From positions 1 through 45,525 of IMG/VR virus record IMGVR_UViG_2531839662_000040: a DNA stretch of 45,525 nt; one strand, 5' to 3'. Shown piece after piece: positions 4,776 to 37,580 of this stretch (position 1 is the first letter of the stretch; each line of letters opens with the position of its first letter). A model generated the notes under the pieces. The model ran no database searches, was not told the origin of the DNA, and worked only from the letters and a program-made list of their open reading frames with translations. Position numbers and translations under genes: made by a program. The stretch is from a virus. Taxonomy: Duplodnaviria; Heunggongvirae; Uroviricota; Caudoviricetes.

Positions 4776-4776
4776 C

Positions 4777-18045: not shown

Positions 18046-18082
18046 GGTTTTATTTCCCATTTTATCCTTTCCCGTTATGGCT

Positions 18083-19650: not shown

Positions 19651-19660
19651 GGAGCAAAAC

Positions 19661-20569: not shown

Positions 20570-20572
20570 TGC

Positions 20573-20914: not shown

Positions 20915-20917
20915 CCC

Positions 20918-21349: not shown

Positions 21350-21402
21350 TTACTGACATTGAACGGGCGCTGGTTGAGCGTCTGCGCTGTGGTCTGGGGC
21401 AT

Positions 21403-22207: not shown

Positions 22208-23621
22208 AATTCAGTTTGACACCATTTCGGGCGGCATCCGTAAGCCCGGTGTGCATTTTGAGTTTAATACCCGACTGGCCGTTAACACGCTGCCGGGTAA
22301 TGAACAGCGTGTTCTGGTGATTGGTCCGATGCTGTCAGGCGGCACCGCCACGCCCCTGAATGCCGTCTCCGTGTATTCCGAAGACGAAGCGGATTTGTAT
22401 TTCGGGGCCGGTTCGCTGGCCGCTGCAATGGCGCGCGCGGCCATTAATGCCAACAGCTATCTGCAACTGGATGTTATCGGTATTGCAGACAGTGGCGCAG
22501 GAAAGGCGGCAACCGGCGCAGTTACCGTCAGTGGCACGGCAACCAGCAGCGGCACGCTGTCGGTATGGGTTGCCGGTGAGCAGGTCACGGTGGATGTGGA
22601 AACCGGTGATGAACCGTCGAAAATCATTCCGGCACTGGTGGAAGCAATGACGCAGACGCCATCGCTTCTGGTCACGGGGGAATACAAATCGGAAGCCTCT
22701 CAGCTGACGGTGACCACCCGGACCAAAGGGGCCTGGGGGGATGATATCACCCTGTCAGCGTCCACCACGGCAGGCGGTCTGACCGTGAGCGCCACGCCGA
22801 TGGCGAACGGCGAAATGGATCCGGATATTCAGCCCGCACTGGATGCGGTCTTTGCCGCCGGTCACAACATTCTGATTTGTCCGTTCAGTACCACGCCAGC
22901 CCTTGCTGCCCTGAAGCAGCATCTGGAGAAAACCGGGAACGCGATGGAACAGCGCGGCGCGATTGGCTGTGCGGGCTGGACGGGTAGTCTCGGAAACGGG
23001 ATCACCCTGGCAGCCGGTGTGAACAGCGGGCGCGTGTCCGTCCCCTGGTATCGCGGCTCCGTGAAGCTGCCAGCGGTGCTGGCTGCCATCTACGGCGCTG
23101 TGATGGCGGGCGAGGAAGACCCGGCGCGTCCGCTGAACTCGCTGGCGCTGTCCGGGCTGGATGTGGTCGCCATGTCACAGCGTGAAAGCCGTAACGAGCA
23201 GGAAAACGCCCTGCATAACGGCCTGACACCGGTTGAGGTTGGCCCGGGTAATACGGTGCAGATTGTGCGTGCAGTCAGTACCTACACGGTGAACGCGCAG
23301 GGCGTGGCTGATGTCTCGCTACTGGATATCACGTCCATCAGAACGCTGGATTACACCCGTAAGGCGTGCCGCGAACGTATCAGCCTCCGCTTCCCGCGTG
23401 AAAAACTCAGCACCCGCACTATCGCAAAAGTGGAAAGTGAACTGTATGACGTGCTGATCAAGCTGGAGGAAGCGGAAATTCTGGAGAACGTGGAAGCGAA
23501 CAAGGCAAAGCTGCGCGTTCAGCGAAACGGGAAAGATGCAAACCGTCTCGACTGCGTGGTTCCGGCGGATGTGGTTAACGGCCTGCACGTGTTTGCCGGT
23601 CGCATCGACATGATTTTGTAA
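22200..23621 (+). CDS. tail sheath protein (Mu L-like)
   Basis: 473 aa; followed by tube, chaperone and tape measure. Confidence 0.8.
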   Translation: MSEIQFDTISGGIRKPGVHFEFNTRLAVNTLPGNEQRVLVIGPMLSGGTATPLNAVSVYSEDEADLYFGAGSLAAAMARAAINANSYLQLDVIGIADSGAGKAATGAVTVSGTATSSGTLSVWVAGEQVTVDVETGDEPSKIIPALVEAMTQTPSLLVTGEYKSEASQLTVTTRTKGAWGDDITLSASTTAGGLTVSATPMANGEMDPDIQPALDAVFAAGHNILICPFSTTPALAALKQHLEKTGNAMEQRGAIGCAGWTGSLGNGITLAAGVNSGRVSVPWYRGSVKLPAVLAAIYGAVMAGEEDPARPLNSLALSGLDVVAMSQRESRNEQENALHNGLTPVEVGPGNTVQIVRAVSTYTVNAQGVADVSLLDITSIRTLDYTRKACRERISLRFPREKLSTRTIAKVESELYDVLIKLEEAEILENVEANKAKLRVQRNGKDANRLDCVVPADVVNGLHVFAGRIDMIL

Positions 23622-23633
23622 GGAGCGCGGTAA

Positions 23634-24008
23634 ATGTCCATTAAAGAATATGTCGGCTCGATTGTGCTGGAGGTGGACAGCCAGGAAATCGAGATCACCG
23701 ACTTCGATGTTCAGATCAACACCGGACGAAAGCTGGTCAAGACCATGAACAAAACCGGCAGGGCAAAAGGCTTTGCCCGTGGCATTGCCACTTACGATAT
23801 TTCAGTTTCGGCGGTTATCCCTGATACCAACGAGCCGGACTGGGAAAATCTGGAAGGTGTGAAAATCTCAATTTATCCGCTCAGCAACAGCGGTAAGCGC
23901 ACCTCCTATCTGGACTGCTTCACTGTTGAAGTGGGTGAGAAATACACCGTCGACAGTGAAGCGAAAATTGATATCAAAATGGCTGCACTCAGGAAGGTGA
24001 CAGGATGA
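23634..24008 (+). CDS. tail tube protein (Mu M-like)
   Basis: 124 aa directly after sheath. Confidence 0.7.
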   Translation: MSIKEYVGSIVLEVDSQEIEITDFDVQINTGRKLVKTMNKTGRAKGFARGIATYDISVSAVIPDTNEPDWENLEGVKISIYPLSNSGKRTSYLDCFTVEVGEKYTVDSEAKIDIKMAALRKVTG

Positions 24009-24388
24009 CTTTGATTAATACACAGACCGGCGAACTGTCTGATGGCGTGGTATTTAACGGCACCGTTCATAAAAACTTTGAGCTGCGTCTGCCGGTCATG
24101 CGTGATAACGGGCAGGCACTGGAAGAAACCGAAGAACGCTTTCAGACGGTGGACGGCTTCGCGGCAGATTATTACTACCGTTGTGCAGTGATGGCGGCAA
24201 CGCTGGTCCGTCTTGGGGATATCCCGCAGGAAGAACTGACGGCGGATCTGTTGCACGACAACATGACGCCGGACGATTTTAATATTCTGCTGGCATCACG
24301 CAACGTCCTGAAGGTAAAGCGGAACGGCGGGAATCCCGGCTCGCCGGACTCCGGCTCGCAGTCCTCATCCTCGGGCGCTACGGAATAA
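24005..24388 (+). CDS. tail assembly chaperone (Mu gp41-like)
   Basis: 127 aa between tube and tape measure; Ser/Gly-rich C-terminus; overlapping -1 frame open from 24283 to 24561. Confidence 0.5.
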   Translation: MTLINTQTGELSDGVVFNGTVHKNFELRLPVMRDNGQALEETEERFQTVDGFAADYYYRCAVMAATLVRLGDIPQEELTADLLHDNMTPDDFNILLASRNVLKVKRNGGNPGSPDSGSQSSSSGATE

Positions 24389-24550
24389 CCGAAGAGCAAA
24401 TCATGACCATGAGCCGTCCCGAGCTGGACGGCTGGCTTGCCGCCGTTGACAGGCTGAACGGCGGCGGCTCAGGAAGGAAGGACACCTCACAGACCACCCG
24501 CCAGTCATTTAAATCCCTCAGAAAGAAACGCAGAAAAGGTAAGCAGAAAA

Positions 24551-26830
24551 ATGGCCGGTAATTTCAAAGTTGGCATGACCCTGACTGCGAAGGACGAAGC
24601 CTCGCAGGTCCTGGAAAAGGGACAAAAACAGGTTATCAAAGCCACCGAAGGTGTAACAAAGGCAACCCGGAAAGCAGGCGCAGAGCAGAAGCGTACCGAG
24701 CAGGAAAGCATTAACAGCACGAAAAAGGCCGCAAAAGAGATACAGCGTGCCGCCCGTGCCCGGGAAACGCTCGGTATTCGTGCAGAACGCGAGATCCGGC
24801 GTGAAATTTATCTGACGGTTGCCAGTTATAACCGTCTGGCCCGCGCCGGTTTTGAATCTGCGCAGGAGCAGGAGCGCGCCATGCAGGCCACCCGGGAAAA
24901 AGCCCGGGCACTCAAGCGCGAACTGGATGGCGTTACTCAGGCTCAGATGAAGATGGCGAAAACGCCTGTTATCCCTGAACAGGGGCGTTTTGCGCGTGCA
25001 GCTGCATTTGGCAGGAATGCCGTGACAACAGGCGCTGGTATCGCAGCAGGTGCGGCTATTATGGCGCAGCCGGTCAAAAAGCAGATGAGCTACGAACGCC
25101 AGCTGGCAATGATGGCCAATACCGCTTTCAGTGATGGCGGCCTGGAGGGGCGCAGAGCTGGTCTTGAGCAGATGAAAAGCAGCATCCGTAACGCAGTGAC
25201 CTATGGTGGCGGTACGAAAGAGGATGCAGCCGAAACACTGGATGCCTTGCTGAAAGACGGCATTTCATTTGAAACAGCCAGTAAGTGGCTGCCCGAACTG
25301 ATGAAATACGCCACGGCTTCAGGCGCATCTGCAACAGACCTGGCTAAGGTGATGATTAAGGGCAAAAAGACCTTTGGATTCAGGGATGAAGATATTTCCA
25401 CCGTTCTGAATATGGCGATTGCAGCGGGCAAAGAAGGCAGCTTTGAACTGAACGACATGGCCCGCTGGTTATCCCAGCAAATGGGCGCTGCGTCAGCTGC
25501 GGGGATGAAAGGCAAGGATGATTTCGTCAAGATTCTGGCGCTGAATGAAGCTGCCGCCATCACGGCGGGAAGCAGTGATGAAGCCGGAAATAACGTGGTT
25601 AACCTGCTGGCAAAACTGACCAGTAAGGATATTGAAACAGCGGCTGCGGGGATAAATTACAACGGTAAGGGAATCGACTTTTCCGGTACGCTGACTGAAG
25701 CACGTGAGAATGGACTTAATCCGATAGACGCGCTGTCCAGCCTGATAGACAAAATCGTTGCCAGCGATAAACGCTATCAGGAGCTGCAAAAGAAACTGGC
25801 CTCCGCCCGGGATAAAGGTGAGCAGACGGCTGTTTATGATTCGATGGCAACACTCCTTGAAGGCTTTGGTGTCGGAAAGCTGATTGCAGACCGTCAGGCG
25901 TTGATGGCGTTGTTAGCCTACCGTAACAACCCTGAATACCGGAAAAAGGTTGAAGACGCGATTAATCAGCAGCGCACCCTGCCGGAAGGTCAGCGCGCGG
26001 GTGATGTGGATTTTAAATTCATATCAGATACGAATGATTTTAAAACCGAACAGGCTAAAAACACGCTTGAATTTTCACAAATGGACAGCGTGAAAAAGCT
26101 GGCGGATGCATCCGGTACTGTGGCCGATGCCATAAGCTGGGCGGGTGAAAAATTTCCGGGACTGACCACAGCAGTCGTGGGTGCCACGACCGCCATTGAA
26201 GCGATGACCGCAGCAGCCCTGACATGGGCCGGGATCAAAATCCTGACCGGGGGTAAACCCGGTGGCAAGGCTGGCGAGGTTGTCGGTGATGTCATTGAAA
26301 ACACGGTCAAAAAAGGCAAAGGATTTAAATTCCCCGGCATTGCCGGTGGCCTGCTTTCTTTCGGTAGCACCGTTACGGCACTGGCCACTGCAACCAGCCC
26401 GGAAGAAGACGCCGCCGTCGAAGGAAGCGAGGAGCGCTGGAAAAATATACGGGCTAAATATCCTCAGTGGCTGATTGATGCTGCCCGTGAAAAATATCAG
26501 CCGTGGTGGCAGTTTGGCGAAGGTTACTCAACAGAAAACGAGAAATGGATCCAGCAGTATCTTGACGAACTGAAAAAAACCGGGGTTATCGCCGGTGATT
26601 CTCTGCCAACACCAGAACAAGTCCGACAGCAAGCCGGAATGGCAGCGTCTGAAACGGCATCAAAGCAACCCGGACGCATCACCCAGCCGGAATACCTCAC
26701 GCACTGGGGACCACCTGCCAGCCCCATTAATTTCACCACACAACTGGTGCTCGATGGTCAGGTCGTGGCGGAAGCGGTGAATAAATACAACCTTCAGGAC
26801 GGCAACAGAGGCACGGGAGGAACTTACTGA
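24551..26830 (+). CDS. tail tape measure protein (Mu-type)
   Basis: 759 aa, Ala/Gly-rich with predicted coiled regions. Confidence 0.8.
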   Translation: MAGNFKVGMTLTAKDEASQVLEKGQKQVIKATEGVTKATRKAGAEQKRTEQESINSTKKAAKEIQRAARARETLGIRAEREIRREIYLTVASYNRLARAGFESAQEQERAMQATREKARALKRELDGVTQAQMKMAKTPVIPEQGRFARAAAFGRNAVTTGAGIAAGAAIMAQPVKKQMSYERQLAMMANTAFSDGGLEGRRAGLEQMKSSIRNAVTYGGGTKEDAAETLDALLKDGISFETASKWLPELMKYATASGASATDLAKVMIKGKKTFGFRDEDISTVLNMAIAAGKEGSFELNDMARWLSQQMGAASAAGMKGKDDFVKILALNEAAAITAGSSDEAGNNVVNLLAKLTSKDIETAAAGINYNGKGIDFSGTLTEARENGLNPIDALSSLIDKIVASDKRYQELQKKLASARDKGEQTAVYDSMATLLEGFGVGKLIADRQALMALLAYRNNPEYRKKVEDAINQQRTLPEGQRAGDVDFKFISDTNDFKTEQAKNTLEFSQMDSVKKLADASGTVADAISWAGEKFPGLTTAVVGATTAIEAMTAAALTWAGIKILTGGKPGGKAGEVVGDVIENTVKKGKGFKFPGIAGGLLSFGSTVTALATATSPEEDAAVEGSEERWKNIRAKYPQWLIDAAREKYQPWWQFGEGYSTENEKWIQQYLDELKKTGVIAGDSLPTPEQVRQQAGMAASETASKQPGRITQPEYLTHWGPPASPINFTTQLVLDGQVVAEAVNKYNLQDGNRGTGGTY

Positions 26831-28179
26831 TGGGCTGGGCTGAAAACCTGCAAAACGCCTCCTTTCGTGGCGTGCAGTTTGATGTACTGAACACGGATGA
26901 ACAAATCAGCCGCGACCATGCGGTCTATGAATACCCGTTTGTTGACGGGGCGGATTTGCACGACCTCGGGCGCAAGGCGCGACCGTTCCGCATGACGGCG
27001 TTCCTGTGGGGGGAGTATTACGAATATAAACTCGAAAAGCTGATCGCCGCCCTGGACGAAGGCGGCGATGGTGAGCTGATTCACCCGGTTTATGGCTCCG
27101 TTCCGTCGGTGATTGTGACCGGCTACAGCATTCGCCATGACGCAGAAAGCCCGGACAGCTGCACCATCGACATGAGCTTTCTGGAGAACCGCACCGGCAG
27201 CGCGTTGTTCAGCACCCCGTTACCGGAGCTGTTTGCACAGCAGTTATTTGAAGAACTGGATAAGTTACTGGCACAGTTAAGCGAATTATTTGACGCTGTT
27301 ACGGCCCCTTTAAAGACCATTAACAGCGTGATTAAAAAAATCCAGACAGTGCGCGCCACACTGGTAAATACCCTGCTGACGTTCAAAAGCGATTTTCTCT
27401 CATCCATCGACAATATGATGTCGCTGGCCAGCGAACCCGGGAAATTTATTGGCGGGCTGGCAGAGGTGCTGGAAATCCACACGTCAGATGTCGGGCACGC
27501 GGTGCCGGTGCTGGAGCGTACTGATTCCGCCACCACGACCGGACTGACCGGGGAAGACAGCGTCGCCAGTTCTGCGACAGTGATGACCTGCTGGAATGAG
27601 GTGACGGCAGATATGGATGAGCTGGTCGCGCTGCCGGTCGCACTGGTCAGCGGTGATAAAACGCCGTCTGTGGCACTTCCGCCGGATGCGTCCGTGGAAG
27701 ACGTGCAGGACGTGAAAGCGGCTTATGCGGTTCTGGCAGCCTCAGAGCTGGCCAGCGTGGCGACGGCGATACTGTCCGATGAGGCCCAGTCAGAACAGCT
27801 TATACCGGCAGATATCGGGCGACTGGTCGGGGATGTGCGCACCCGCTTACAGGCAGCCATCACGCTGTTCCGTGAACGCTATGAAAGCGAACGCGAACGG
27901 ATAACCGAAACCGCATCACCACTGGGGCTGATGTACCCGGAAATCATTCAGAGCATGAAGAACGTGGCGGCATCCGTGCAGGATGTCGGCCTGCTGGTTC
28001 TGTCACGCCGCCCACCGCTGACGCAGAAACAGGTGCAGGCGGACAGCTGTCTGCTGTTGCTGGCGTGGCAGTGGTACGGTGATTACAGCCGTGCGGCAGA
28101 GCTGCAACGTCTGAACCCGCAGCTGCGTGACCCGAACAACATAACCGCCGGGATGGTGATTAATGCCTACGCAAAATAA
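26830..28179 (+). CDS. Mu N-like DNA circularisation/tail protein
   Basis: 449 aa following tape measure, as in Mu. Confidence 0.7.
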   Translation: MGWAENLQNASFRGVQFDVLNTDEQISRDHAVYEYPFVDGADLHDLGRKARPFRMTAFLWGEYYEYKLEKLIAALDEGGDGELIHPVYGSVPSVIVTGYSIRHDAESPDSCTIDMSFLENRTGSALFSTPLPELFAQQLFEELDKLLAQLSELFDAVTAPLKTINSVIKKIQTVRATLVNTLLTFKSDFLSSIDNMMSLASEPGKFIGGLAEVLEIHTSDVGHAVPVLERTDSATTTGLTGEDSVASSATVMTCWNEVTADMDELVALPVALVSGDKTPSVALPPDASVEDVQDVKAAYAVLAASELASVATAILSDEAQSEQLIPADIGRLVGDVRTRLQAAITLFRERYESERERITETASPLGLMYPEIIQSMKNVAASVQDVGLLVLSRRPPLTQKQVQADSCLLLLAWQWYGDYSRAAELQRLNPQLRDPNNITAGMVINAYAK

Positions 28180-29374
28180 CGACGACAAAATCAGTCTGGT
28201 CATTGCCGGAAGGTCGCATTCTGACTGGAGCAGTTACCGTATTGACAGTGATTTCCTGAAAGCTGCCGACGGCTGGCAGCTTCAGTTGGGACTGCCTGAA
28301 AAGGTGTTCCCGGCGGATATCGTCCGGGGTGCGCCAGTCCGGTTGCAGGTGGGAGACGAAACGGTGCTCAGTGGTCGCGTGGACAGCGTGCGCCGCAGTG
28401 TATCCCGTCAGAGCTGCACGCTGACGCTGTCCGGGCGTGATGATGCCGCCATTCTGGTGGACTGTGCCGCGCCGGTGTTCAGCGCCAACCAGCTGACACT
28501 GGACGAGGTCATCGACAGGATAGTCAGACCGCTGGGGATACAGCGCATTCGTATTCAGGCGTCCGGTGTGTCACGTAATGACAAGGTCGTTATAGAGCCG
28601 GGGATGCGTGCGTGGGATGCACTGGCTAAAGCTGCCGCCGGTCGCGGCTTATGGCCGTGGTTTGAGCCTGACGGGACGCTGGTTGTGGGTGGCCCTGACT
28701 ACACCACCACGCCGGTGGATACGCTGATTCTGAAGCTGGACGGCACCGGGAACAACGTGATGGAGCTGGATGATACCCGGTCCATTAACGGCTGCTTCTC
28801 CGAACTTACAGTGCTGGCACAGAGCCACGCCCGCCGCGCAGACAGCAAAAAGCAGCTGGCCACAGTGCCACTGGATATCTGGAACGAGGACGGCAGCGTG
28901 CGCACATTATCCGGGCGGGACGGCGGTAATACGGACAATGGCCAGACAGGCATTCATAACATGAAAGCTGTGGCCACCGACCCCACCGTGGATTATTACC
29001 GCCCGCAGATTATCACTCAGGGTGACACCAGCAACCTGGAGCAGGTGAACTGGCGCGCCAAAAAAATGATGAGTGATGCCCGTCTGTCGGGGCTGGATAT
29101 CGTCGCACTGGTTGCAGGTCATCGCACGGCGGACGGTGTCCTGTGGCAGCCCGGCCAGCGTGTGCGGATTGTCAGCGAACCCCACGGCATCGACGCCATC
29201 TTTTTCCTGATGGGGCGTGAGTTCAGCGGAGGCCGTAACGGGAAGACAACCCGGCTCCGATTTAAGGAGGACGGCGTGTGGATACCTGACGCCTTCCCGC
29301 GCGAGAAGAAACGCCATCACCGCAGGGGCAAAAAGAAAAAAGAGGTCGCCATTGTTAAGGTCTGGGAGAAATGA
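28163..29374 (+). CDS. Mu P-like tail protein (P2 gpD-like fold)
   Basis: 403 aa; synteny N then P. Confidence 0.7.
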   Translation: MPTQNNDDKISLVIAGRSHSDWSSYRIDSDFLKAADGWQLQLGLPEKVFPADIVRGAPVRLQVGDETVLSGRVDSVRRSVSRQSCTLTLSGRDDAAILVDCAAPVFSANQLTLDEVIDRIVRPLGIQRIRIQASGVSRNDKVVIEPGMRAWDALAKAAAGRGLWPWFEPDGTLVVGGPDYTTTPVDTLILKLDGTGNNVMELDDTRSINGCFSELTVLAQSHARRADSKKQLATVPLDIWNEDGSVRTLSGRDGGNTDNGQTGIHNMKAVATDPTVDYYRPQIITQGDTSNLEQVNWRAKKMMSDARLSGLDIVALVAGHRTADGVLWQPGQRVRIVSEPHGIDAIFFLMGREFSGGRNGKTTRLRFKEDGVWIPDAFPREKKRHHRRGKKKKEVAIVKVWEK

Positions 29375-30024
29375 TGTGGGACAAAGTTAATCAGCGCGTA
29401 CAGCAGGCACTGGCCGCCGTTCGCCAGGCATTCAGGGTGGTGACCGGTACGGTGGACAGTTCGACCAAAGTACAGTTGCTTCAGCTGAACGGGCTGGCAG
29501 GCGAACAGCTGGATGGTGCGGAGTATTTCCAGCATTACGGCCTCACCACATCTCCGCCACCCGGCTCGATGGGTATTGCCGTTCCGCTGAACGGCAATAC
29601 CTCCCATACCGTCGTCGTGGCCACAGAGCACGGCGCATATCGCCTGACGGAACTGAAACCCGGCGAGGTGGCCCTGTATACCGATGAAGGCGCGAAAATC
29701 GTACTGAAACGCGGGCGGGTTGTTGAAACGGACTGTGACGTTTACCGGGTGAAATGCAAACGCTATGAGGTTGAGGCAGAGGAAAGTGCCGCATTCACGA
29801 CACCGTTACTGACGGCCAGCGATAAGCTGACGGTGGAAGGTAAAATCACCGGCAACGGTGGCATGGCCATCAGTGGGGGCAAGAAATACGCCGCCACCTT
29901 TGAAGGCAACATCAACCATGTGGGTGGTGTGATTACCTCCGTTGACGTCACCGTTAATGGCGTTAAAATCGGAACGCATAAACACGATACCCCTCACGGC
30001 ATATCTGGTCTGCCGCATAATTAA
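29371..30024 (+). CDS. baseplate spike protein (Mu gp45 / P2 gpV-like)
   Basis: 217 aa; C-terminal His-rich apex GTHKHDTPHGISGLPHN. Confidence 0.65.
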   Translation: MMWDKVNQRVQQALAAVRQAFRVVTGTVDSSTKVQLLQLNGLAGEQLDGAEYFQHYGLTTSPPPGSMGIAVPLNGNTSHTVVVATEHGAYRLTELKPGEVALYTDEGAKIVLKRGRVVETDCDVYRVKCKRYEVEAEESAAFTTPLLTASDKLTVEGKITGNGGMAISGGKKYAATFEGNINHVGGVITSVDVTVNGVKIGTHKHDTPHGISGLPHN

Positions 30025-30044
30025 GTGCTGAACCCCCTCACCTG
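30025..30044 (+). promoter_or_regulatory. conserved late-operon motif, copy 3 (GTGCTGAACCCCCTCACCTG)
   Basis: shares GTGCTGAAC core with copies at 10660 and 18083; lies between spike and gp46-like genes. Confidence 0.35.
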
Positions 30045-30077
30045 ATTCTGACCTGTCCATGCTGCCAGACTGGCGGC

Positions 30078-30428
30078 ATGGACCAGACGATTTCACCTGC
30101 AACCGGCGACTACGAACGCCGCCGGATTTATACACTCCATAACGCGGTTTATCTGCGACTGGCGACACCGCTTGGCAGTTACTGGGCGGATGCGTCGCTG
30201 GGGTCACGCCTGCACGAACTGAAGCGGGAAAAAGACGTTTCCCGTGTTCACAGGCTGGCGGCGCAGTATGCCAGCCAGGCACTTCAGCCCCTGCTTGATG
30301 ACGGGCGGGCAAAATCCATTACCGTTGACACGAAAGCGGGCCAGCGCGGCTGGTTGTTGCTGTTAATCACTGTCACGGATAACGCGGGCACACCGCAGAC
30401 GTTTGAACACCCTGTGAGGATTATGTAA
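30078..30428 (+). CDS. baseplate protein (Mu gp46 / P2 gpW-like)
   Basis: 116 aa by synteny. Confidence 0.55.
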   Translation: MDQTISPATGDYERRRIYTLHNAVYLRLATPLGSYWADASLGSRLHELKREKDVSRVHRLAAQYASQALQPLLDDGRAKSITVDTKAGQRGWLLLLITVTDNAGTPQTFEHPVRIM

Positions 30429-31507
30429 TGCCGTTTCCTGTTCCGGGCGTTGCTGAAAACACAGAACGCCAGCTACGTGATATCGCTAACGCCCTGCCGG
30501 GAGAAACCATCGACACCGGCGCTGACAGCGATTACCGCATTCGTGCAAATGCCGTATCCGGCGTGGCGGACGGGCTTTATATGCATCAGGGATGGATCCT
30601 CCGTCAGGTGTTTCCTGACACGGCAGACCCTGAATATCTGGAGCTGCACTGCCGTACGCGCAATGTTTTTCGTAAAAAAGCAACGGCCTCATCCGGTCCG
30701 GTAGTGATTACCGGCACACCCGGTAAGACGCTGCCAGCCGGTGCGGAAATTCGTGGTGAAGGTGTCAGCGTGACCACCACAGCAGACTGCACCGTCGGCG
30801 ATGAAGGCAGTGCAGAGGTGACGGTAAAAAGCTCCGCCACGGGTGCACAGACGAACGCATCCGCAACGCAGACGGCAACGCTGGTCAGCCCGCCGGAAGG
30901 CATCAACAGCACGGTGACGATTAAATCCCTGACCGGCGGAACGGACAGGGAAAGCGACGCCGACCTGCTGGCGCGTTATCTGGATATTCTGCGCAGGCCG
31001 CCCGCTGGCGGTAACAAATATGATTACAAACGCTGGGCGCTGGAAGTGGATGGCGTTACGTCTGCGTATGTGGAGCCGTTGCGTCGTGGACTGGGGACGG
31101 TTGATGTGGCCATTACGTCAGCCAATGACCTCCCTTCGCAGGAACTGATTAATGCCGTGCTGGCACATATTGAGGAAGTCCGCCCGGTCACAGCGAAAGA
31201 CACGATGGTACTGGCCCCGACGAAAAAAGCCGTTGATTTCGTTGTCCGGGTAAAAACCAGCGGCCTGACCGTTGAGCAGATAAAACCGCAGATAACTGAC
31301 GTTATCACGGATTTTATGAACCGGCTGGAGCCGGGGCAGGAATTAATTATTTCACAACTGGAAACCCAGATTTCATTAATTTCCGGTGTCAGTGACCGGC
31401 GAATCATTACGCCAGCAGACAATGTAAAAGCCATTATTAACGCGTCAACGTGGGAATGGCTGCGTCCGGGAAATATTGATATTCAGTCCTTTCCGCGTGA
31501 GGGGTGA
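30428..31507 (+). CDS. baseplate J-like protein (Mu gp47)
   Basis: 359 aa by synteny and size. Confidence 0.7.
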   Translation: MPFPVPGVAENTERQLRDIANALPGETIDTGADSDYRIRANAVSGVADGLYMHQGWILRQVFPDTADPEYLELHCRTRNVFRKKATASSGPVVITGTPGKTLPAGAEIRGEGVSVTTTADCTVGDEGSAEVTVKSSATGAQTNASATQTATLVSPPEGINSTVTIKSLTGGTDRESDADLLARYLDILRRPPAGGNKYDYKRWALEVDGVTSAYVEPLRRGLGTVDVAITSANDLPSQELINAVLAHIEEVRPVTAKDTMVLAPTKKAVDFVVRVKTSGLTVEQIKPQITDVITDFMNRLEPGQELIISQLETQISLISGVSDRRIITPADNVKAIINASTWEWLRPGNIDIQSFPREG

Positions 31508-31510
31508 TTC

Positions 31511-32083
31511 ATGAATATGGTCGATTTATTTCGCGCCATGCTGCCGCCTGTCAGTTATGACCAGAACGGAAAATATATTTCCGCAGAACTGATGGCCGAG
31601 GCTAACGTCATGGAGGCCGTGAAGGCATCAGCGGCGAGTGTTCTGGCACAAATCACCCCATTGCAGGCATCGATGACGCTGTCTGACTGGGAGCGCGTGT
31701 ACGGTGTTGTCCCCCGTGAAGGTGCCACGCAACAGGAGAGGCGGCAGAACATCCAGGTCAGGATGGCTGCCACTGGCGGGCTGTCAATTCCTTACTTTAA
31801 GAGTCTTGCCGCCAGCCTGGGCTACACCATCACCATTACGGAGCCGCGAGCGTTCCGGGTGGGGATAAATCGCTGCGGTGACCGTCTGCTGATACCGGAA
31901 ATCCGCTGGGTGTGGCAGGTCAATGTTATCGGGACAAAAACGCCGGTCTACCGTTTCAGAACGGGGGCATCGGCAACCGGCGAACCGCTGACGGCCTTTG
32001 GTGAATCCATTTTAGAAAACACGTTTAAAGACCTTAAACCGGCTTTTACAGACTGTTATTTCACATATGAGGTGGAGGAATAA
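31511..32083 (+). CDS. baseplate/tail protein (Mu gp48 / P2 gpI-like)
   Basis: 190 aa by synteny. Confidence 0.6.
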
Positions 32084-33066
32084 TGCAGAATTTAATGCCT
32101 CCGGTGAATACGCCGGATAAGCTATTTCATGATGGTGACCCCACTCAGGGAATTGAGGGAACCATCGTTTACGCCGAATATATGAATAATCATCAGGCGG
32201 CAACGCGCGATTTGCAGCAGGAGGTGATTAACGTCCTTAAAGAGGCTGGCGTAACCCCGGATCCGAAAAAACAGAATCAACTGGTTGAGGCGCTGGCCTT
32301 ATATGTCGGGAAAAAAGTTCCTGACGCATCATTAACGAAGAAGGGTATCGTTCAGCTCAGTAGTGCAACAGACAGTGATTCAGAAGAACTGGCTGCCACC
32401 CCAAAGGCAATAAAGGCGTTAGCAAAAAAAATTGCTGATTTACAGGGTACGGCTTTACCGGTCGGGACACCAATCCCGTGGCCATCTGATTCTGTGCCAT
32501 CCGGTTATGCCTTAATGCAGGGGCAAAGTTTTGATAAAGGCTCTTACCCTAAACTTGCGGTTGCCTATCCGTCCGGGGTTATTCCTGATATGCGCGGCTG
32601 GACTATCAAGGGTAAGCCTGCCAGTGGTCGTGCCGTATTGTCTCAGGAACAGGATGGCATCAAGTCGCATACCCACAGTGCCAGTGCGTCAAATACCGAT
32701 TTAGGAACGAAAACGACAAGTTCATTTGACTACGGCACCAAGACAGTCAGCACGTTTAACCACGGCACAAAATCAACAAATAACACAGGAAATCATACGC
32801 ACAGTGTCGGTGGTGTTTATGGCGGCGACTCTATCGGCGGAAAACAACGTGTGCAGGCGTCAGGGAGCAATCAGATTTCCAGTACTGCCGGAGCACATGC
32901 TCATACTGTCGATATTGGTCAGCATAACCACACCGTAGGTATTGGTGCCCATGCACACACTGTGGCATTGGGTGCGCACGGGCACACCATCACGGTAAAT
33001 CCAACAGGCAATACCGAAAACACCGTCAAAAACATTGCATATAACTATATTGTGAGGCTGGCATAA
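32083..33066 (+). CDS. tail fibre protein (Mu S / P2 H-like) with His-rich HxH repeats at C-terminus
   Basis: N-terminal [25 protein letters not shown] and collar-like [11 protein letters not shown]...PDMRG; C-terminal HTHS, GNHTHS, GAHAHTV, QHNHTV, GAHAHTV, GAHGHTI repeats. Confidence 0.7.
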
Positions 33067-33641
33067 TGACTTTCAAAATGAGTGCAGAAGCACAAACCAT
33101 TCGTGTATTTAATTATCTCGATGGCACAAATGAATTTATTGGCGAAAGCGACGCATATATTCCACCTCATACAGGTCTGCCAGCTAATTCAACAGATATT
33201 GCGCCTCCTGATATTCCGGCGGGTTTTGCTGCCGTGTTTAATGCTGATGAAATGAAATGGCATCTGATGGAAGACCACCGAGGGAAAACGGTTTATTCAA
33301 CAGAAACCGGAGTAGCTGTAACAGTGTCTGAACTGGGAAGCCTTCCTGAAAATGTGACTTCTGTTTCTCCTGATGGCGAATACCAACGCTGGAATGGCAG
33401 TCAGTGGGTGACAGATGAAGAAGCCAGGCGTAATGCGCTGATAAATCAGGCGGCAGAGAAGAAAGCGGGTCTGCTTAAACAGATGGGAGAGCAAATCGCC
33501 GTTTTACAGGATGCCGTTGATTTTGGTGAAGCGACGCCAGAAGAACAGGAACAGCTGACAGCCCTCAGGAAATTACGAATAAAGTTAAATCGCATTCAAC
33601 CGGAAAACGCGCCAGATATTGACTGGTCAGACTTTGAATAA
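33066..33641 (+). CDS. tail fibre assembly protein (lambda Tfa / Mu U-like)
   Basis: N-terminus [33 protein letters not shown] closely matches recalled lambda Tfa. Confidence 0.8.
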
Positions 33642-33649
33642 ATCAGACA

Positions 33650-33670
33650 GCCGCCCGCAGGCGGCTTTTT
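33650..33670 (+). terminator. rho-independent terminator
   Basis: GCCGCC-CGCA-GGCGGC followed by TTTTT. Confidence 0.6.
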
Positions 33671-33686
33671 ATCATTCAGAGGTTTT

Positions 33687-35303
33687 ATGTCTGTATTAAT
33701 CTCAGGCGCGCTTATTAATGGCGCTGGCGTTCCGATGGCGGAATGCAAAATTTATTTAGATGCACTGGTTAATACCAGTGAGGTGGTCACTGAATCATTC
33801 GCGGTTATTGAAACCGATGCGGCGGGACAGTATGCCTTTGAAGCGCAAAAAGGCAAATACACCGTACACATCAAGCAAAAGAACGGCCCCAAGTGCTGCG
33901 TGGGTGATATCGCTGTATACGATGACTCAAAGCCCGGCACACTGAATGATTTTCTGACCGCCCCCAATGAAGGCGACCTCAAACCCGACGTGGTGAAACG
34001 CTTTGAGGAAATGGTGGCGCAGGCGCAGCAGAGCGCGGAAGCGGCAGCGGAAAGCGAACGACAGGCCGGGCAACACGCAGCTGATGCGCAGAAGATTAAG
34101 GGTGATTGCCAGACGCTGGCAGATAATGTTCAGCAGAATACAAATGCTGTGGAGGAAAACACGCAGCGCGTTGAACAGCTGGCCTCAGAAGTTGAGCTGA
34201 ACGCCGGGCAGGTGCAGCAGGGCGTGCAGAATGTTACTGATGCGGTAAAAAAGGCGCAGCAGGCAGCAAAGAATTCTGCTGACAGTGCCACTGACTCAAA
34301 AAACAGTGCTGACAACGCCGCCCTGAGCGAACAGAACGCACAAAAACACGCGCAGAAAGCTGAACAACATGAGCAGCAGACTAAACAATATGCGCAGGAT
34401 GCAGCGACCGCCGCAGAATCAGCAGAGAACGCCAAAGGCGAAATTGACGAAATTCTGGATGGCGGCTATCTCAAGATAAAAAACAACTTTCAGGAAATTG
34501 TTGATGCTGGCCCCTCAGCACTGGCTCAGGCCCAATGGAATTTACAGATTTCCGGGGTGAAAAATAAACAGGTAATTGCCACCCCTTATACATGGCCATC
34601 CAGAACTGAGTATGAACAAAGGGTGCATCTGCCACTCGCCGGGGCTTACGGATTTGGCTACACGTTTGAAGACAAAAGCCAGGGACGTATAAACCTTAGC
34701 GAAAGTTACACCGGCTCCTGGTGGTCACAGTGGGTAAAGCCGGGGCGTTATTACGTTACAACCAGTGATAAACAATATCTGACACCAGACGGGTACACGT
34801 ACGGGGTTGTTGATGTGCTGTGGCTTAACGGTAACGCATATAATGACGCTTCGCAGGTTCTTAAAATACTGGCTTTTTACGATGGTGACGGATGCCTGCA
34901 TATCGGCAAGCGCGTTGGTCAGAGCAACTGGTCAATAAGCTGGCGCAAGCTGACATCGCTCCCTGATGTCAGGGCCATGCTGTATTCATATATTTATAAT
35001 AATTACAACAGAGAATGGCGTGACCCGGAGCTGGGAGGTTTAATTCTGGCGTCATACCAGGGAACCGCAGACGGCGACACAAATATAAAAGTATCCCGTG
35101 GTCAGACTTATCCCGGCTCACGACTTGCACCTGTGGCGATAGAATGCCAGTTCACTCCATCCGGTACGTATGCCGCAACACCGCGATTCCATATTACCGG
35201 CTGCAAGAGCAAATCACTCCCCGGAACTTATATTTCACTGTCTGGAGCACCCACAACATACAGCGACCAGGCTTTTGTGGCGCTATTCATGAGGATTGCA
35301 TGA
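33687..35303 (+). CDS. side tail fibre protein (lambdoid Stf-like N-terminus)
   Basis: 538 aa; MSVLISGALINGAG N-terminus of lambdoid Stf type; Ala/Gln-rich coiled middle; distinct C-terminal domain. Confidence 0.65.
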   Translation: MSVLISGALINGAGVPMAECKIYLDALVNTSEVVTESFAVIETDAAGQYAFEAQKGKYTVHIKQKNGPKCCVGDIAVYDDSKPGTLNDFLTAPNEGDLKPDVVKRFEEMVAQAQQSAEAAAESERQAGQHAADAQKIKGDCQTLADNVQQNTNAVEENTQRVEQLASEVELNAGQVQQGVQNVTDAVKKAQQAAKNSADSATDSKNSADNAALSEQNAQKHAQKAEQHEQQTKQYAQDAATAAESAENAKGEIDEILDGGYLKIKNNFQEIVDAGPSALAQAQWNLQISGVKNKQVIATPYTWPSRTEYEQRVHLPLAGAYGFGYTFEDKSQGRINLSESYTGSWWSQWVKPGRYYVTTSDKQYLTPDGYTYGVVDVLWLNGNAYNDASQVLKILAFYDGDGCLHIGKRVGQSNWSISWRKLTSLPDVRAMLYSYIYNNYNREWRDPELGGLILASYQGTADGDTNIKVSRGQTYPGSRLAPVAIECQFTPSGTYAATPRFHITGCKSKSLPGTYISLSGAPTTYSDQAFVALFMRIA

Positions 35304-35872
35304 TGCAGATAAAAGAAATTACCAGCCCCCACTACACCGAATCCGGTGCGATTGACTGCGAAGTTTTATTTGAAGGGATGGATGAAGCCGTTCCGTACAC
35401 AGCCACACCAGAAGACACAGCAACAACAGGCCAGCAAATTTGGCAGGAACTGCAAAGCGGCAAATGGGGCGAGATTGCCCCGTTCACCGCATCACCTGAA
35501 CTTATCGCAGCAGCAAAGGACGCCAAAAAACGGGAAATTGAGGCATGGCGCACAGAACAGGAAGCGCAGCCATTCACGTTCGAATGGAACGGCCGCACAT
35601 GGAACGCTGGCCCCGACTCAATGGCCCGTCTTTATCCTGTGGTAATGGCTGCAAAATCTGATACGGCACGAACTGCCCTTGCGTGGGGTGACGCCGATAA
35701 TCAACAGGTGAAACTGTCGATGCCGGAACTGGAAGAACTGGCAGCCGCGATGGCGCAGGCGCAGGTTGAGCGCAATGACGAGATTTATCAACGCCAGCGT
35801 GAGATGAAGGAGGAACTGAATAACCTGGATGATTTACGCTCAATCAGAGCGATGACGATTAGCAGCAGTTAG
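35300..35872 (+). CDS. tail fibre assembly protein (Tfa)
   Basis: ATGA overlap with fibre stop; 190 aa; highly similar to the Tfa at 44953..45525. Confidence 0.65.
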   Translation: MMQIKEITSPHYTESGAIDCEVLFEGMDEAVPYTATPEDTATTGQQIWQELQSGKWGEIAPFTASPELIAAAKDAKKREIEAWRTEQEAQPFTFEWNGRTWNAGPDSMARLYPVVMAAKSDTARTALAWGDADNQQVKLSMPELEELAAAMAQAQVERNDEIYQRQREMKEELNNLDDLRSIRAMTISSS

Positions 35873-35876
35873 CGGT

Positions 35877-35937
35877 CAATTCTGGACTTTTTGGGCGCAC
35901 CTGAACCGTCCAGAATTGCGCGTCAATCAGTCCAGAA
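35877..35937. repeat. inverted repeat CAATTCTGGAC / GTCCAGAATTG with third TCCAGAA copy
   Basis: 11-bp arms separated by 20 nt; third half-site about 12 nt further on; lies between a Tfa and an N-terminally short fibre ORF. Confidence 0.35.
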
Positions 35938-35955
35938 AAAAACGCGAAGTTACAG

Positions 35956-37032
35956 ATGATCAGCGACAGAGGTACGCTTATCGCGTACGGACGTTATCCC
36001 GACACCTTTTTACCAGACCAGACGGACTCCGTTATCAAGGAAGTTATTCTGACGCTGGTTCTTGGGTTGACGCACGCACAAAACGTGGTGCTGGAAGTTG
36101 ATCCGGACAGGGCCATTATTACTCAGGAAATCGGAGACAGACGCTATCTGCAACGAAAAAAGAATCTTTCGGATGTGGAAGACAAGGATGAGGCTGTTGA
36201 AAACCTCGGATTAAAACCCACGGTGGACAAGGCAAAAAATGCCGTTCAGCGTGATGGTGACACCATGACCGGGGAACTGAAAATCCGTGGTGTTAATGCG
36301 CTGAGGATTTTCAACGAGGCTTTTGGCCTGATTTTTCGTCGTTCAGAAGATTACCTGCACTTCATTCCCACGCAGGAAGACCATGGAGAAAATGGTGATA
36401 TTGGCCCACTGCGGCCCATTTCCATTAACCTGCGCCAGGGCGATGTGGTTATTGGTGACAGGATTGGCATCGGTAATGAGAACAATCTGGGTGAAAAATC
36501 ACTCACGCTCTGTGATAGCAATACCGGTTTTAAGTGGGGCGGACGCGGTGTTATTAATGTGTTTGCAGAGGGACACAACGTCTTTCGTTTTACAAAAAAC
36601 GGTGTGCTGGCATTAGAAAATCTCTCGACCGGCAATTTAAGAAAGTTCACGCTGTCGTGTGACAGTTCTTCCACGAAGAGTGCAAGATTTAATCTATGGG
36701 GAAATTCCTCAAGGCCTGTTGTTGCAGAGCTTGGTGATGATTCTGGCTGGCATTTTTACAGTCAGAGGAATACGGATAACAGCATAACGTTTGCCGTAAA
36801 CGGGCAGATGGTTCCATCAAACTACGGAAATTTTGATACCCGTTACCAGACCAGAACAGGTGGTGTGCAGGATGTGCGTCTGGGAGGTGCCATTGGTATT
36901 GGACGCGGAGGAAATGCGCCATCAGGTCATTTACTGAGTGGTGTTGATGGCGGTGAAAGTGTGGACTGGGCCAATGCACGCCCGGTGCAGGTTCTGATTA
37001 ATGGTGTCTGGCGAAATGTAGCGAGTTTGTAA
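35956..37032 (+). CDS. tail fibre C-terminal-type protein lacking Stf/H-like N-terminal domain
   Basis: 358 aa; GDTMTGEL fibre motif and Gly-rich C-terminus; weak RBS; frame open about 50 nt upstream without start codon. Confidence 0.5.
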   Translation: MISDRGTLIAYGRYPDTFLPDQTDSVIKEVILTLVLGLTHAQNVVLEVDPDRAIITQEIGDRRYLQRKKNLSDVEDKDEAVENLGLKPTVDKAKNAVQRDGDTMTGELKIRGVNALRIFNEAFGLIFRRSEDYLHFIPTQEDHGENGDIGPLRPISINLRQGDVVIGDRIGIGNENNLGEKSLTLCDSNTGFKWGGRGVINVFAEGHNVFRFTKNGVLALENLSTGNLRKFTLSCDSSSTKSARFNLWGNSSRPVVAELGDDSGWHFYSQRNTDNSITFAVNGQMVPSNYGNFDTRYQTRTGGVQDVRLGGAIGIGRGGNAPSGHLLSGVDGGESVDWANARPVQVLINGVWRNVASL

Positions 37033-37034: not shown

Positions 37035-37580
37035 ATGATGCACTTAAAAAATCTTACGGCACAAAACCCTAAAACAATTGAGCAATACCAGCTGGCACGA
37101 CAGCATAAATTTTTATTGTGGCTGTTCTCCGATGATGGTCAGGAATGGCACGAAGCCCAGGAAAAATTTCAGCCAGACACTCTGAAAGTTATTTATGTTG
37201 AAACTGGCGAAGTGGTCTGGGTCGGAAAAGACATCACCTCAATCTGCCCGGAAAATAAAAGTGTGATTGAGTTGCCGGATATTACCGCTAATCGTCGCAT
37301 TGAGGCGTCGGGATACTGGTTCTACCGCAATGATGAATTTGTTTTTGACTACAAACTTAAAGCGGAAGATGAGCGTGATGCACTGTTAAAACAGGTCAGC
37401 ATCATGACCAGCGAATGGGAAAAAGACCTGCTGCTGGGATTAATCAGTGACGAAGACAGGGAAAAGCTCAAAGCGTACCGCATTTACGCGAAATCGCTGC
37501 AGGCGATGGATTTCAGCGCTATTACGGATAAGACCACTTACAACAATATTAGCTGGCCTGAGCAGCCACAAAATACCTGA
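37035..37580 (+). CDS. tail fibre assembly protein (P2 G / TfaE-like)
   Basis: 181 aa; MMHLKNLTAQNPKT...VELPDITANRR resembles recalled TfaE-type chaperones. Confidence 0.7.
   Translation: MMHLKNLTAQNPKTIEQYQLARQHKFLLWLFSDDGQEWHEAQEKFQPDTLKVIYVETGEVVWVGKDITSICPENKSVIELPDITANRRIEASGYWFYRNDEFVFDYKLKAEDERDALLKQVSIMTSEWEKDLLLGLISDEDREKLKAYRIYAKSLQAMDFSAITDKTTYNNISWPEQPQNT

What the first reader, a model, noticed from the sequence alone, without database searches (positions are those of the whole stretch)
35877..37032. N-terminally short fibre cassette preceded by an inverted repeat with three TCCAGAA half-sites
ORF 35956..37032 has fibre C-terminal features but no Stf/H-type N-terminal domain, a weak RBS, and an open frame upstream without a start codon. 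Immediately upstream lies CAATTCTGGAC-20 nt-GTCCAGAATTG plus a third TCCAGAA. It could be a silent receptor-binding cassette joined to an upstream fibre N-terminus by site-specific or homologous recombination, or a decayed fibre gene. No invertase gene is visible and all cassettes are co-directional, so classical G-segment-type inversion is not supported.
Basis: partly seen in the sequence, partly recalled or inferred. Interest (0 to 1): 0.55.

Follow-up and report, generated by a model that had tools for sequence, protein, structure and literature searches.

The report
Mu-like prophage end splitting fibre gene
The "short fibre gene with an odd repeat in front" is the back two-thirds of a tail-fibre gene of one prophage that was cut in two when a second, Mu-like transposable prophage jumped into it, and the repeat is the Mu-like phage's right end with its three presumed transposase-binding sites; this is ordinary biology.

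Summary
ORF 35956..37032, the 11-bp inverted repeat with a 20-nt spacer (35877-35887 / 35908-35918) and a third GTCCAGAA (35930-35937) are all present and non-random.

The interpretation as a silent cassette is not supported. The window is from E. coli UMNF18. Positions 1..35954 are most of a 37,086-bp Mu-like transposable prophage, which has a MuA-like transposase, a MuB-like ATPase and TG...CA ends. It inserted into the P2-type fibre gene of a resident prophage.

The ORF is codons 92-449 of that gene. It is intact at 449 aa in strain ETEC1738. Codons 1-92 lie 37 kb upstream, outside the window. A 4-bp target duplication, GATG, flanks the insert and supplies the ORF's ATG.

The three TCCAGAA sites sit at nt 18-25, 40-47 and 68-75 (inverted) from the terminus. 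Phage Mu's R1, R2 and R3 have the same layout, with 22-bp R1-R2 spacing. The same motif occurs three times at the left end, with L1 also at nt 18-25. Related prophages at five other loci conserve the sites while the spacer varies.

There is no invertase and no terminator.

One side note: this lineage makes 4-bp target duplications, against 5 bp for Mu and 6 bp for B3.

The parts
1..35954 (+). Mu-like transposable prophage, nt 1133-37086 of a 37,086-bp element. Its first 1132 nt (left end, repressor gene) lie just upstream of the window, at UMNF18 record 1364157-1365288.
   Evidence: The window maps at 100% to NZ_AGTD01000001.1. RefSeq gene content is Mu-like: Mor, DUF935 portal, gpT head, sheath, tape measure, DNA circularization protein, Gp46/47/48. 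Related prophages with the same ends sit at five other chromosomal loci.
234..2276 (+). MuA-like DDE transposase (680 aa).
   Evidence: Pfam Mu-transpos_C (6.9e-17) and HTH_Tnp_Mu_1 (3.8e-10) pass their cut-offs; rve is sub-threshold. Weak sequence match to the MuA core structures 1BCM/4FCY. 40-49% identity to transposases of isolated Mu-like phages such as VW-6B, SuMu and Yersinia/Klebsiella phages.
2295..3188 (+). MuB-like AAA+ target-capture ATPase (297 aa).
   Evidence: Pfam AAA_22 (1.5e-19) and TniB (3.6e-6). Annotated as AAA family ATPase.
35300..35872 (+). Last gene of the Mu-like prophage: DUF4376 protein, partner of the side fibre at 33687..35303.
   Evidence: Pfam DUF4376 6.3e-17; RefSeq CDS.
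35880..35887 (-). R3-like site: the motif GTCCAGAA on the minus strand, nt 68-75 from the terminus, inverted relative to R1 and R2.
   Evidence: Conserved in four related right ends while the 20-nt spacer to R2 varies. Mu's R3 is likewise inverted.
35908..35915 (+). R2-like site, nt 40-47 from the terminus. It forms the right arm of the inverted repeat (35908-35918).
   Evidence: It lies 22 bp from R1, the same spacing as between the CGAAA cores of Mu R1 and R2.
35930..35937 (+). R1-like site, nt 18-25 from the terminus.
   Evidence: The left end carries the same motif at the same distance, nt 18-25, from its own terminus.
35953..35954 (+). Terminal CA-3' of the prophage (right end ...CGCGAAGTTACA). 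The left end starts TGTGGGG.
   Evidence: Homology with the uninterrupted gene of ETEC1738 and other genomes begins at 35955. All six related prophages end ...GTTACA and start TGTGGGG.
35955..35958 (+). Right copy of the 4-bp target-site duplication GATG. Its ATG becomes the start codon of the truncated ORF (Met92 of the intact protein).
   Evidence: The intact target reads CTGGG-GATG-ATCAGC. The left junction is ...CTGGGGATG|TGTGGGG and the right junction is GTTACA|GATGATCAGC.
35956..37032 (+). 3' fragment (codons 92-449) of the P2-type H-like tail-fibre gene of the resident prophage.
   Evidence: 355/358 identical to residues 92-449 of the 449-aa ETEC1738 protein. Residues 1-92 are encoded at record 1363881.., upstream of the Mu-like left end. 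The Pfam PF12571 match is truncated.
37035..37580 (+). Tail-fibre assembly protein (G-like) of the resident prophage. Sheath, tube, E, tape measure, U, X and D genes follow.
   Evidence: Pfam Caudo_TAP 4.7e-23. Same protein accession, WP_000972189.1, and same gene order as in ETEC1738.

Best explanation
The region is the right junction of a nested prophage insertion.

A 37,086-bp Mu-like transposable phage integrated by DDE transposition into codon 92 of the P2-type H-like tail-fibre gene of a resident prophage of E. coli UMNF18. That prophage has lambda-type head genes and P2-type tail genes.

The 358-codon ORF is the orphaned 3' part of that gene. It starts at an internal Met codon that lies in the 4-bp target duplication GATG. 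The 5' part (codons 1-92, fused to 25 codons of Mu-like left-end sequence) lies 37 kb upstream, outside the window.

The inverted repeat plus third copy of TCCAGAA is the attR of the Mu-like phage: three binding sites for its MuA-like transposase. R1 and R2 are direct repeats 22 bp apart. R3 is inverted, 20 bp beyond R2. Together with three sites at the left end they would assemble the transpososome that cleaves at the terminal CA and joins it to target DNA.

Shown here: the insertion, its exact ends, the duplication, the repeat layout, and its conservation. Inferred: that the transposase binds these sites, and that the fibre fragment is non-functional.
For: 1. **Source and break point.** The window is UMNF18 at 100% identity. 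In the other genomes listed, the matching DNA starts at query 2356 or 2368, that is window 35955 or 35967, the junction. Only UMNF18 covers the whole query.
2. **Intact gene elsewhere.** ETEC1738 carries the uninterrupted 449-aa gene in the same gene order (I, fibre, Tfa, sheath, tube...). The ORF equals residues 92-449. The upstream fragment equals residues 1-92.
3. **Junctions.** The target is CTGGG-GATG-ATCAGC. The left junction is GGATG|TGTGGGG. The right junction is GTTACA|GATGATC.
4. **Content between the junctions is Mu-like.** A repressor and a Ner-like HTH gene, then a 680-aa transposase with Mu-transpos_C and HTH_Tnp_Mu_1, an AAA+ MuB-like ATPase, Mor, and Mu-type head and tail genes including Gp48.
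5. **Mobility.** Related prophages with the same TGTGGGG...GTTACA ends sit in the aga operon, a PAAR/Rhs gene, a CP4-44-like island, an HTH gene and next to yigF. Each is flanked by a 4-bp duplication. The STEC316 empty site is 100% identical in more than 4500 genomes.
6. **Motif layout.** TTCTGGAC lies at nt 18-25 of both ends, at 40-47 and (inverted) 68-75 on the right, and at 92 and 143 on the left. The sites are invariant among four prophages while the R2-R3 spacer diverges.
7. **Same layout in Mu.** Read from the terminus, phage Mu's right end shows R1 and R2 direct, with cores 22 bp apart, and R3 inverted.
8. **No terminator-like site** in 35500-36300.
Against: - Binding of the transposase to the TCCAGAA sites is not demonstrated.
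- The sites share no sequence with Mu's own consensus. The transposase is only remotely similar to MuA (E about 4e-4 to the core structures).
- The target duplication is 4 bp, not the 5 bp that defines Mu.
- One relative (Z1323CEC0011) carries A-type sites at the left end and G-type sites at the right. The apparent co-variation of the six sites is therefore not strictly one specificity per phage.
- An RNA fold of the region is more stable than shuffles (z = -3.3). This is expected from three copies of one motif, but it does not by itself exclude an RNA role.
Confidence: 0.93

Rival explanations
1. Silent or alternative receptor-binding cassette. The N-terminally short ORF would be a stored fibre C-terminus, joined to an upstream fibre N-terminus by site-specific or homologous recombination at the TCCAGAA repeat (a shufflon- or G-segment-like host-range switch).
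For: - Several fibre and chaperone modules lie co-directionally within 12 kb: 32083-33641, 33687-35872, 35956-37580 and 43550-45525.
- A hix/gix-like left half-site, TTGAAAACCTCGGATT, lies inside the ORF at 36195-36212.
- Another Mu-like lineage (Sakai Sp18) does carry an invertase and an invertible fibre region.
Against: - The ORF is the exact continuation of a gene that is uninterrupted in ETEC1738.
- The break is a transposon terminus with a target duplication.
- No serine invertase or other recombinase is annotated near it in 90 kb. The only one is an unrelated tyrosine integrase about 55 kb upstream.
- The repeat has 11-bp arms 20 bp apart, not two 12-bp half-sites around a 2-bp core.
- The repeat motif also sits at the far left end of the 37-kb element, where there is no fibre gene.
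- The neighbouring fibre modules belong to two different prophages.
Confidence: 0.02
2. The inverted repeat is the transcription terminator, or another RNA hairpin, of the preceding DUF4376 (Tfa-like) gene.
For: - It begins 5 nt after the stop codon at 35870-35872.
- The RNA folds to -31.6 kcal/mol, z = -3.3 against shuffles.
Against: - No terminator-like site was found in 35500-36300.
- The loop is 20 nt and no T-run follows either possible stem.
- In AZ146 the upstream gene is a different one, yet the three sites keep their positions relative to the terminus.
- The same motif occurs three times at the left end, where no gene ends.
Confidence: 0.04
3. The fibre fragment decayed by deletion or recombination between prophages, and the flanking repeat is unrelated regulatory DNA such as an operator for a phage repressor or activator.
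For: - Prophage fibre regions are recombination hot spots.
- The resident prophage carries other defects, including a frameshifted portal gene.
Against: - Nothing is deleted. Both halves of the gene are present and, minus one GATG, add up exactly to the intact sequence.
- The sites are at fixed distances from both termini of the insert. That is the signature of transposase end sites, not of an operator.
Confidence: 0.01

Closest known systems
Phage Mu right end (attR: MuA-binding sites R1, R2, R3) and left end (L1, L2, L3)
   Same: - TG...CA termini.
- Three sites per end.
- R1 and R2 direct with 22-bp spacing, R3 inverted so that R2 and R3 form an inverted repeat.
- L1 close to the terminus, with L2 and L3 set apart from it (three sites per end with different spacings, PMC3145075).
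- Transposase and AAA+ partner genes next to the left end behind a divergent repressor.
- A genome of about 37 kb.
   Different: - The site sequence (nnCAATTCTGGRC) is unrelated to Mu's GTTTCA...CGAAA consensus.
- The R2-R3 gap is 20 bp between motifs, against about 8 bp between the CGAAA cores in Mu.
- The transposase is only remotely similar to MuA.
- The target duplication is 4 bp, not 5.
- There is no Gin/G segment and no mom.
Other E. coli Mu-like prophages that interrupt genes or other prophages (Sakai Sp18 in sorM; 'inserted Mu-like phage' regions in Stx phages LC727881 and LC727895)
   Same: - A transposable prophage inserted at an arbitrary site that splits a host or prophage gene, with a short target duplication.
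   Different: - Sp18 is a different lineage, with an invertase and a DNA modification (mom-like) gene, GGTATCAAA-type end repeats and a 5-bp duplication, CCAGG.
- The Stx-phage inserts encode a transposase only 45% identical to this one.
Mu G segment / P1 C segment / e14 P segment (Gin/Cin/Pin invertible fibre cassettes)
   Same: - Fibre C-termini with their chaperones arranged as modules.
- A relic hix/gix-like half-site at the ENLGL motif inside the fragment.
   Different: - No invertase, no pair of full crossover sites, and no oppositely oriented cassette.
- The N-terminal truncation is caused by transposon insertion, not by cassette architecture.
P2 gene H / G tail fibre and assembly pair
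   Same: - Position after the baseplate genes V, W, J and I and before sheath and tube.
- PF12571 N-terminal domain in the intact homologue.
- A Caudo_TAP chaperone directly downstream.
   Different: - Here the gene is split into a 117-codon 5' remnant and a 358-codon 3' remnant 37 kb apart.

Membership tests
Mu-like transposable phage end (att site of a MuA-family transposase) | DDE transposase of the MuA family with an adjacent AAA+ MuB-like ATPase, encoded next to one end | tested here: met
   Pfam Mu-transpos_C, HTH_Tnp_Mu_1 and sub-threshold rve in the 680-aa protein; AAA_22/TniB in the 297-aa protein. The genes lie 1.1-4.3 kb from the left terminus.
Mu-like transposable phage end (att site of a MuA-family transposase) | 5'-TG ... 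CA-3' termini | tested here: met
   TGTGGGG...GTTACA in UMNF18 and five related prophages.
Mu-like transposable phage end (att site of a MuA-family transposase) | Short direct duplication of the target, with an empty site in relatives; 5 bp for Mu, 6 bp for B3 (PMC8705779) | tested here: met
   A duplication is present and the empty sites were recovered. Its length is 4 bp in all six insertions, not 5 or 6. The same reading gives 5 bp for Sp18.
Mu-like transposable phage end (att site of a MuA-family transposase) | Insertion at many unrelated loci | tested here: met
   Six different loci in six strains. The left end was found in 46 genomes.
Mu-like transposable phage end (att site of a MuA-family transposase) | Several repeated transposase-binding sites at each end, the terminal one at the same distance from both termini | tested here: met
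   The motif lies at nt 18-25 of both ends, plus two more sites per end. The sites are conserved and the spacers variable. This is a sequence pattern only.
Mu-like transposable phage end (att site of a MuA-family transposase) | Transposase actually binds the sites and cleaves at the CA | not testable with these tools
   Needs footprinting or in vitro transposition.
Gin/Hin/Cin/Pin invertible fibre segment | Serine DNA invertase gene adjacent to the segment | tested here: not met
   None is annotated in UMNF18 1330000-1420000 or in the related prophages.
Gin/Hin/Cin/Pin invertible fibre segment | Pair of inverted 26-bp crossover sites (two 12-bp half-sites around a 2-bp core, AAACCnnGGTTT centre) | tested here: not met
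Only five one-mismatch matches to the core in 45.5 kb, which 5 of 100 shuffles also reach. One lies in the fragment (36201-36212), with a degenerate right half and no inverted partner. The consensus used was recalled from my own knowledge.
Gin/Hin/Cin/Pin invertible fibre segment | Alternative fibre C-termini in opposite orientation | tested here: not met
   All fibre modules are on the + strand. The minus-strand ORF 37589-38134 has no Pfam match.
Intrinsic terminator | GC-rich short-loop hairpin followed by a T-run | tested here: not met
   No sites in 35500-36300. The loop is 20 nt and there is no T-run.

The most novel reading that the evidence does not exclude
This widespread E. coli lineage of Mu-like prophages transposes with a 4-bp target stagger. 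All transposable phages described so far give 5 bp (Mu) or 6 bp (B3 and the Leptospira prophages).

Its six end sites carry the same purine at motif position 7 within each end: TTCTGGAC in UMNF18, TTCTGGGC in relatives. If the lineage is active, it would be a natural variant for asking how a MuA-family transpososome sets the spacing of its two strand transfers.
Probability: 0.45. Interest if true: 0.4.

Novelty: new member of a known kind. Interest (0 to 1): 0.17.

Why it matters
**For the scan.** It removes a false lead. There is no new host-range switching system here. A tail-fibre gene was knocked out when one prophage transposed into another.

**For annotation.**
- Two UMNF18 CDSs are halves of one disrupted gene: 'hypothetical protein' WP_000622492.1 and the 117-aa 'phage tail protein' WP_001013719.1.
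- The ends of this Mu-like lineage can now be placed to the base: TGTGGGG...GTTACA, with TTCTGGRC sites at fixed positions.

**For biology.**
- The insertion inactivates the main fibre of the resident prophage, which is already damaged by a frameshifted portal gene.
- The only point of wider interest is the consistent 4-bp target duplication in a MuA-family element.

Tried and rejected
- **Terminator reading.** The consensus scan found nothing. The stable RNA fold follows from three copies of one motif.
- **gix/hix-type sites.** Only a relic half-site lies inside the fibre fragment.
- **Inverted second chaperone gene at 37589-38134 (minus strand).** It has no Pfam hit and lies inside the sheath gene, so I treat it as spurious.
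- **Strict co-evolution of the six sites with the transposase.**
  - UMNF18 has A where STEC316, STEC346 and AZ146 have G in all six sites.
  - The UMNF18 and STEC316 transposases differ most densely at residues about 137-188.
  - Z1323CEC0011 mixes an A-type left end with a G-type right end. I therefore report the pattern and do not claim a specificity switch.
- **Sakai Sp18 as the same lineage.** It is not. It has different ends, an invertase and a 5-bp duplication.
- **The 681 E. coli genomes matching the right end.** Many hits are a decayed relic at the ompW locus of O157:H7 and relatives, not active prophages.
- **5-bp duplication counting the terminal A of GTTACA.** It fits four of six insertions. 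UMNF18 and STEC316, whose empty sites are known, exclude it.
- **Literature.** Searches found no report of a 4-bp duplication for a Mu-like phage. The library is incomplete.
- **Not used.** The large protein-database, structure-prediction and RNA-family tools were unnecessary.

Full report
**1. The observation**

- ORF 35956..37032 (+, ATG, 358 aa) is listed.
- CAATTCTGGAC (35877-35887) and GTCCAGAATTG (35908-35918) are perfectly complementary 11-nt arms separated by 20 nt.
- GTCCAGAA occurs again at 35930-35937, 22 nt downstream of the second arm.
- The 8-mer occurs four times in the window against 1.14 expected. Three of the four lie within 58 bp.
- In 1000 shuffles of the window, none placed even two copies within 60 bp.
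- The open frame upstream of the ATG is only 17 codons long.

**2. Where the window comes from, and the break point**

Window 33600-39700 is 100% identical to E. coli UMNF18 (NZ_AGTD01000001.1, 1398888-1404988). Window position 1 is therefore record position 1365289.

290 records of the complete-genome collection match part of that stretch. In every listed record other than UMNF18 the match starts at query 2356 or 2368, that is window 35955 or 35967, the base after ...GTTACA or a few bases beyond.

Downstream of that point the annotation is a P2-type tail cluster: fibre, tail-fibre assembly protein, sheath, tube, E-like protein, tape measure, U, X and D.

**3. The ORF is the 3' part of a split gene**

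In strain ETEC1738 the same prophage carries an uninterrupted 449-aa 'phage tail protein' between the I-like baseplate gene and the assembly protein (L004 5729..7078).
- The window ORF is 355/358 identical to residues 92-449 of that protein.
- Residues 1-92 are encoded in UMNF18 at record 1363881 onward, directly after the I-like gene. There the frame runs on for 25 foreign codons to a stop; this CDS is annotated as a 117-aa 'phage tail protein'.
- Pfam agrees. The intact protein matches PF12571 (tail-collar fibre, N-terminal) over profile positions 7-149. The window ORF matches only positions 95-149.

The 'N-terminally short' fibre is therefore a gene cut inside its N-terminal domain.

**4. 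What lies between the halves**

Between the two fragments lies a 37,086-bp element (record 1364157-1401242). The window contains it from nt 1133 to its last base, window 35954.

Gene content:
- a divergent HTH repressor and a Ner-like HTH gene
- a 680-aa transposase with Mu-transpos_C and HTH_Tnp_Mu_1 domains
- a 297-aa AAA+ ATPase
- Mor, holins and an endolysin
- terminase, a DUF935 portal, protease and a gpT-type major head protein
- sheath, tape measure, DNA circularization protein and baseplate genes through Gp48
- two fibre/chaperone pairs

It is a Mu-like transposable prophage.

Its transposase is far from MuA itself, with only E of about 4e-4 to the 1BCM/4FCY core. It is 40-49% identical to transposases of isolated Mu-like phages, namely Pseudomonas VW-6B, Klebsiella and Yersinia phages, Mannheimia 3927AP2 and Haemophilus SuMu.

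**5. The junctions**

| Site | Sequence |
|---|---|
| Intact target | ...CGTGAACTGGG-GATG-ATCAGCGAC... |
| UMNF18 left junction | ...CTGGGGATG\|TGTGGGGTGGTGATCAATTCTGGAC... |
| UMNF18 right junction | ...GTCCAGAAAAAAACGCGAAGTTACA\|GATGATCAGC... |

The element has TG...CA termini and is flanked by a duplication of exactly GATG. The ATG of the window ORF is codon Met92 of the fibre gene, which lies inside the right copy of the duplication. This explains the weak ribosome-binding site.

**6. The same element elsewhere**

Related prophages have 85-88% identical left ends and an 89% identical transposase in STEC316. They sit at unrelated loci.

| Strain | Locus | Flanking duplication |
|---|---|---|
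| STEC316 | between agaF and agaE | CCCT |
| STEC346 | PAAR/Rhs-type toxin gene | AGTA |
| Ecol_AZ146 | CP4-44-like island | CTGG |
| 08-00022 | an HTH gene | CTTG |
| Z1323CEC0011 | next to yigF | AATC |

All begin TGTGGGG and end GTTACA.

A construct of the STEC316 flanks with a single CCCT matches more than 4500 E. coli genomes at 100% over its full length. This proves that empty site.

**7. What the repeat is**

Read inward from the termini, the motif TTCTGGAC lies at the following positions.

| End | Site | Position (nt from terminus) | Orientation |
|---|---|---|---|
| Right | R1 | 18-25 | direct |
| Right | R2 | 40-47 | direct |
| Right | R3 | 68-75 | inverted |
| Left | L1 | 18-25 | direct |
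| Left | L2 | 92-99 | direct |
| Left | L3 | 143-150 | direct |

The 'third half-site' is R1.
- Among four prophages the sites are invariant apart from one position. The 20-nt R2-R3 spacer is free to vary in sequence but not in length.
- Phage Mu's own right end, read the same way, shows R1 and R2 as direct repeats with cores 22 bp apart. R3 is inverted, so that R2 and R3 form an inverted repeat. Mu ends have three MuA sites each, with different spacing at L and R (PMC3145075).
- The layout here is that of a Mu attR, with a different recognition sequence.
- No terminator-like site is present.
- The binding itself is inferred, not shown.

**8. The invertase question**

No serine invertase is annotated in 90 kb around the site or in the three related prophages whose full annotation I read (STEC316, STEC346, AZ146). 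All fibre modules are co-directional.

- two modules of the Mu-like phage (32083-33641 and 33687-35872)
- the split H/G pair (35956-37580)
- the resident prophage's own side-fibre module (43550-45525), which is homologous to the Mu-like one at 38% and 72% aa identity

A hix/gix-like left half-site lies inside the fragment at 36195-36212. It has no partner.

**9. Comparison with the known, and novelty**

Mechanistically this is textbook. A Mu-like phage transposes into an arbitrary target, here another prophage's gene. Sp18 does the same in sorM of O157 Sakai. GenBank records of Stx phages annotate 'inserted Mu-like phage' regions.

The lineage's ends had apparently not been annotated. RefSeq calls the fragment a hypothetical protein.

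One feature departs from the family definition. The target duplication is 4 bp in six of six insertions, two of them verified against empty sites. Mu gives 5 bp and B3 and the Leptospira prophages give 6 bp (PMC8705779). By the same reading, Sp18 gives 5 bp, CCAGG. I found no report of 4 bp in the held literature.

**10. Verdict**

- The 'silent cassette / recombination site' reading is rejected. The 'decayed fibre gene' option is upheld, and its cause is identified.
- Interest is low for the finding as posed. There is a modest side lead in the 4-bp stagger.

Noticed in passing
window 35955-35958 with L002 14154-14157; L005 423-426/38050-38053; L006 422-425/37815-37818; L007 210-213/36032-36035; L014-L017: All six insertions of this Mu-like lineage are flanked by 4-bp target duplications: GATG, CCCT, AGTA, CTGG, CTTG and AATC. 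Mu gives 5 bp and B3 gives 6 bp. Two were verified against empty sites. Four of the six have an A just before the left copy, which may be chance or a target preference.
   Followed up: partly
window 35886, 35909, 35931 and L002 14181, 14255, 14306, compared with L005, L006, L007, L016, L017: Motif position 7 is A in all six sites of the UMNF18 prophage. It is G in all six sites of three relatives. Z1323CEC0011 has A-type sites at the two left-end sites read (L1, L2) and G-type sites at the right end. The UMNF18 and STEC316 transposases differ most densely at residues about 137-188.
   Followed up: partly
L011 3767-4119 (E. coli O157:H7 PV15-279, ompW locus): A decayed relic of the same kind of right end lies beside a DUF4376 pseudogene and a truncated ompW. 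The GTTACA terminus is kept and the three motifs are mutated. Right-end-like sequence occurs in 681 of 5426 complete genomes, many of them O157:H7 and other STEC.
   Followed up: partly
window 36195-36212: TTGAAAACCTCGGATT, encoding the ENLGL motif of the fibre, matches the left half of hix/gix-type invertase crossover sites. Its right half is degenerate, it has no inverted partner, and no invertase is nearby. It is probably a relic shared among fibre genes.
   Followed up: partly
window 33687-35872 and 43550-45525: Two co-directional copies of a side-fibre module (phage_tail_N fibre plus DUF4376 protein) each sit at the extreme right end of their prophage, one Mu-like and one resident. The proteins are 38% and 72% identical. 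Recombination between the copies could delete the interval.
   Followed up: partly
window 32083-33066: The first fibre gene of the Mu-like prophage (327 aa, Phage_fiber_2 plus Collar domains) is annotated by PGAP as 'missing N-terminus' in UMNF18, STEC316 and STEC346. However, it has an ATG overlapping the stop of the Gp48-like gene. It may be a genuinely short fibre and not a pseudogene.
   Followed up: no
L002 4731-6253 (UMNF18 record 1354730-1356252): The portal gene of the resident prophage is annotated as frameshifted. That prophage is therefore probably defective independently of the fibre disruption.
   Followed up: no
window 37589-38134, minus strand: A 181-aa ORF has the same length as the adjacent assembly protein gene but lies on the opposite strand, inside the 5' part of the sheath gene. 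It has no Pfam match and I judged it spurious.
   Followed up: yes
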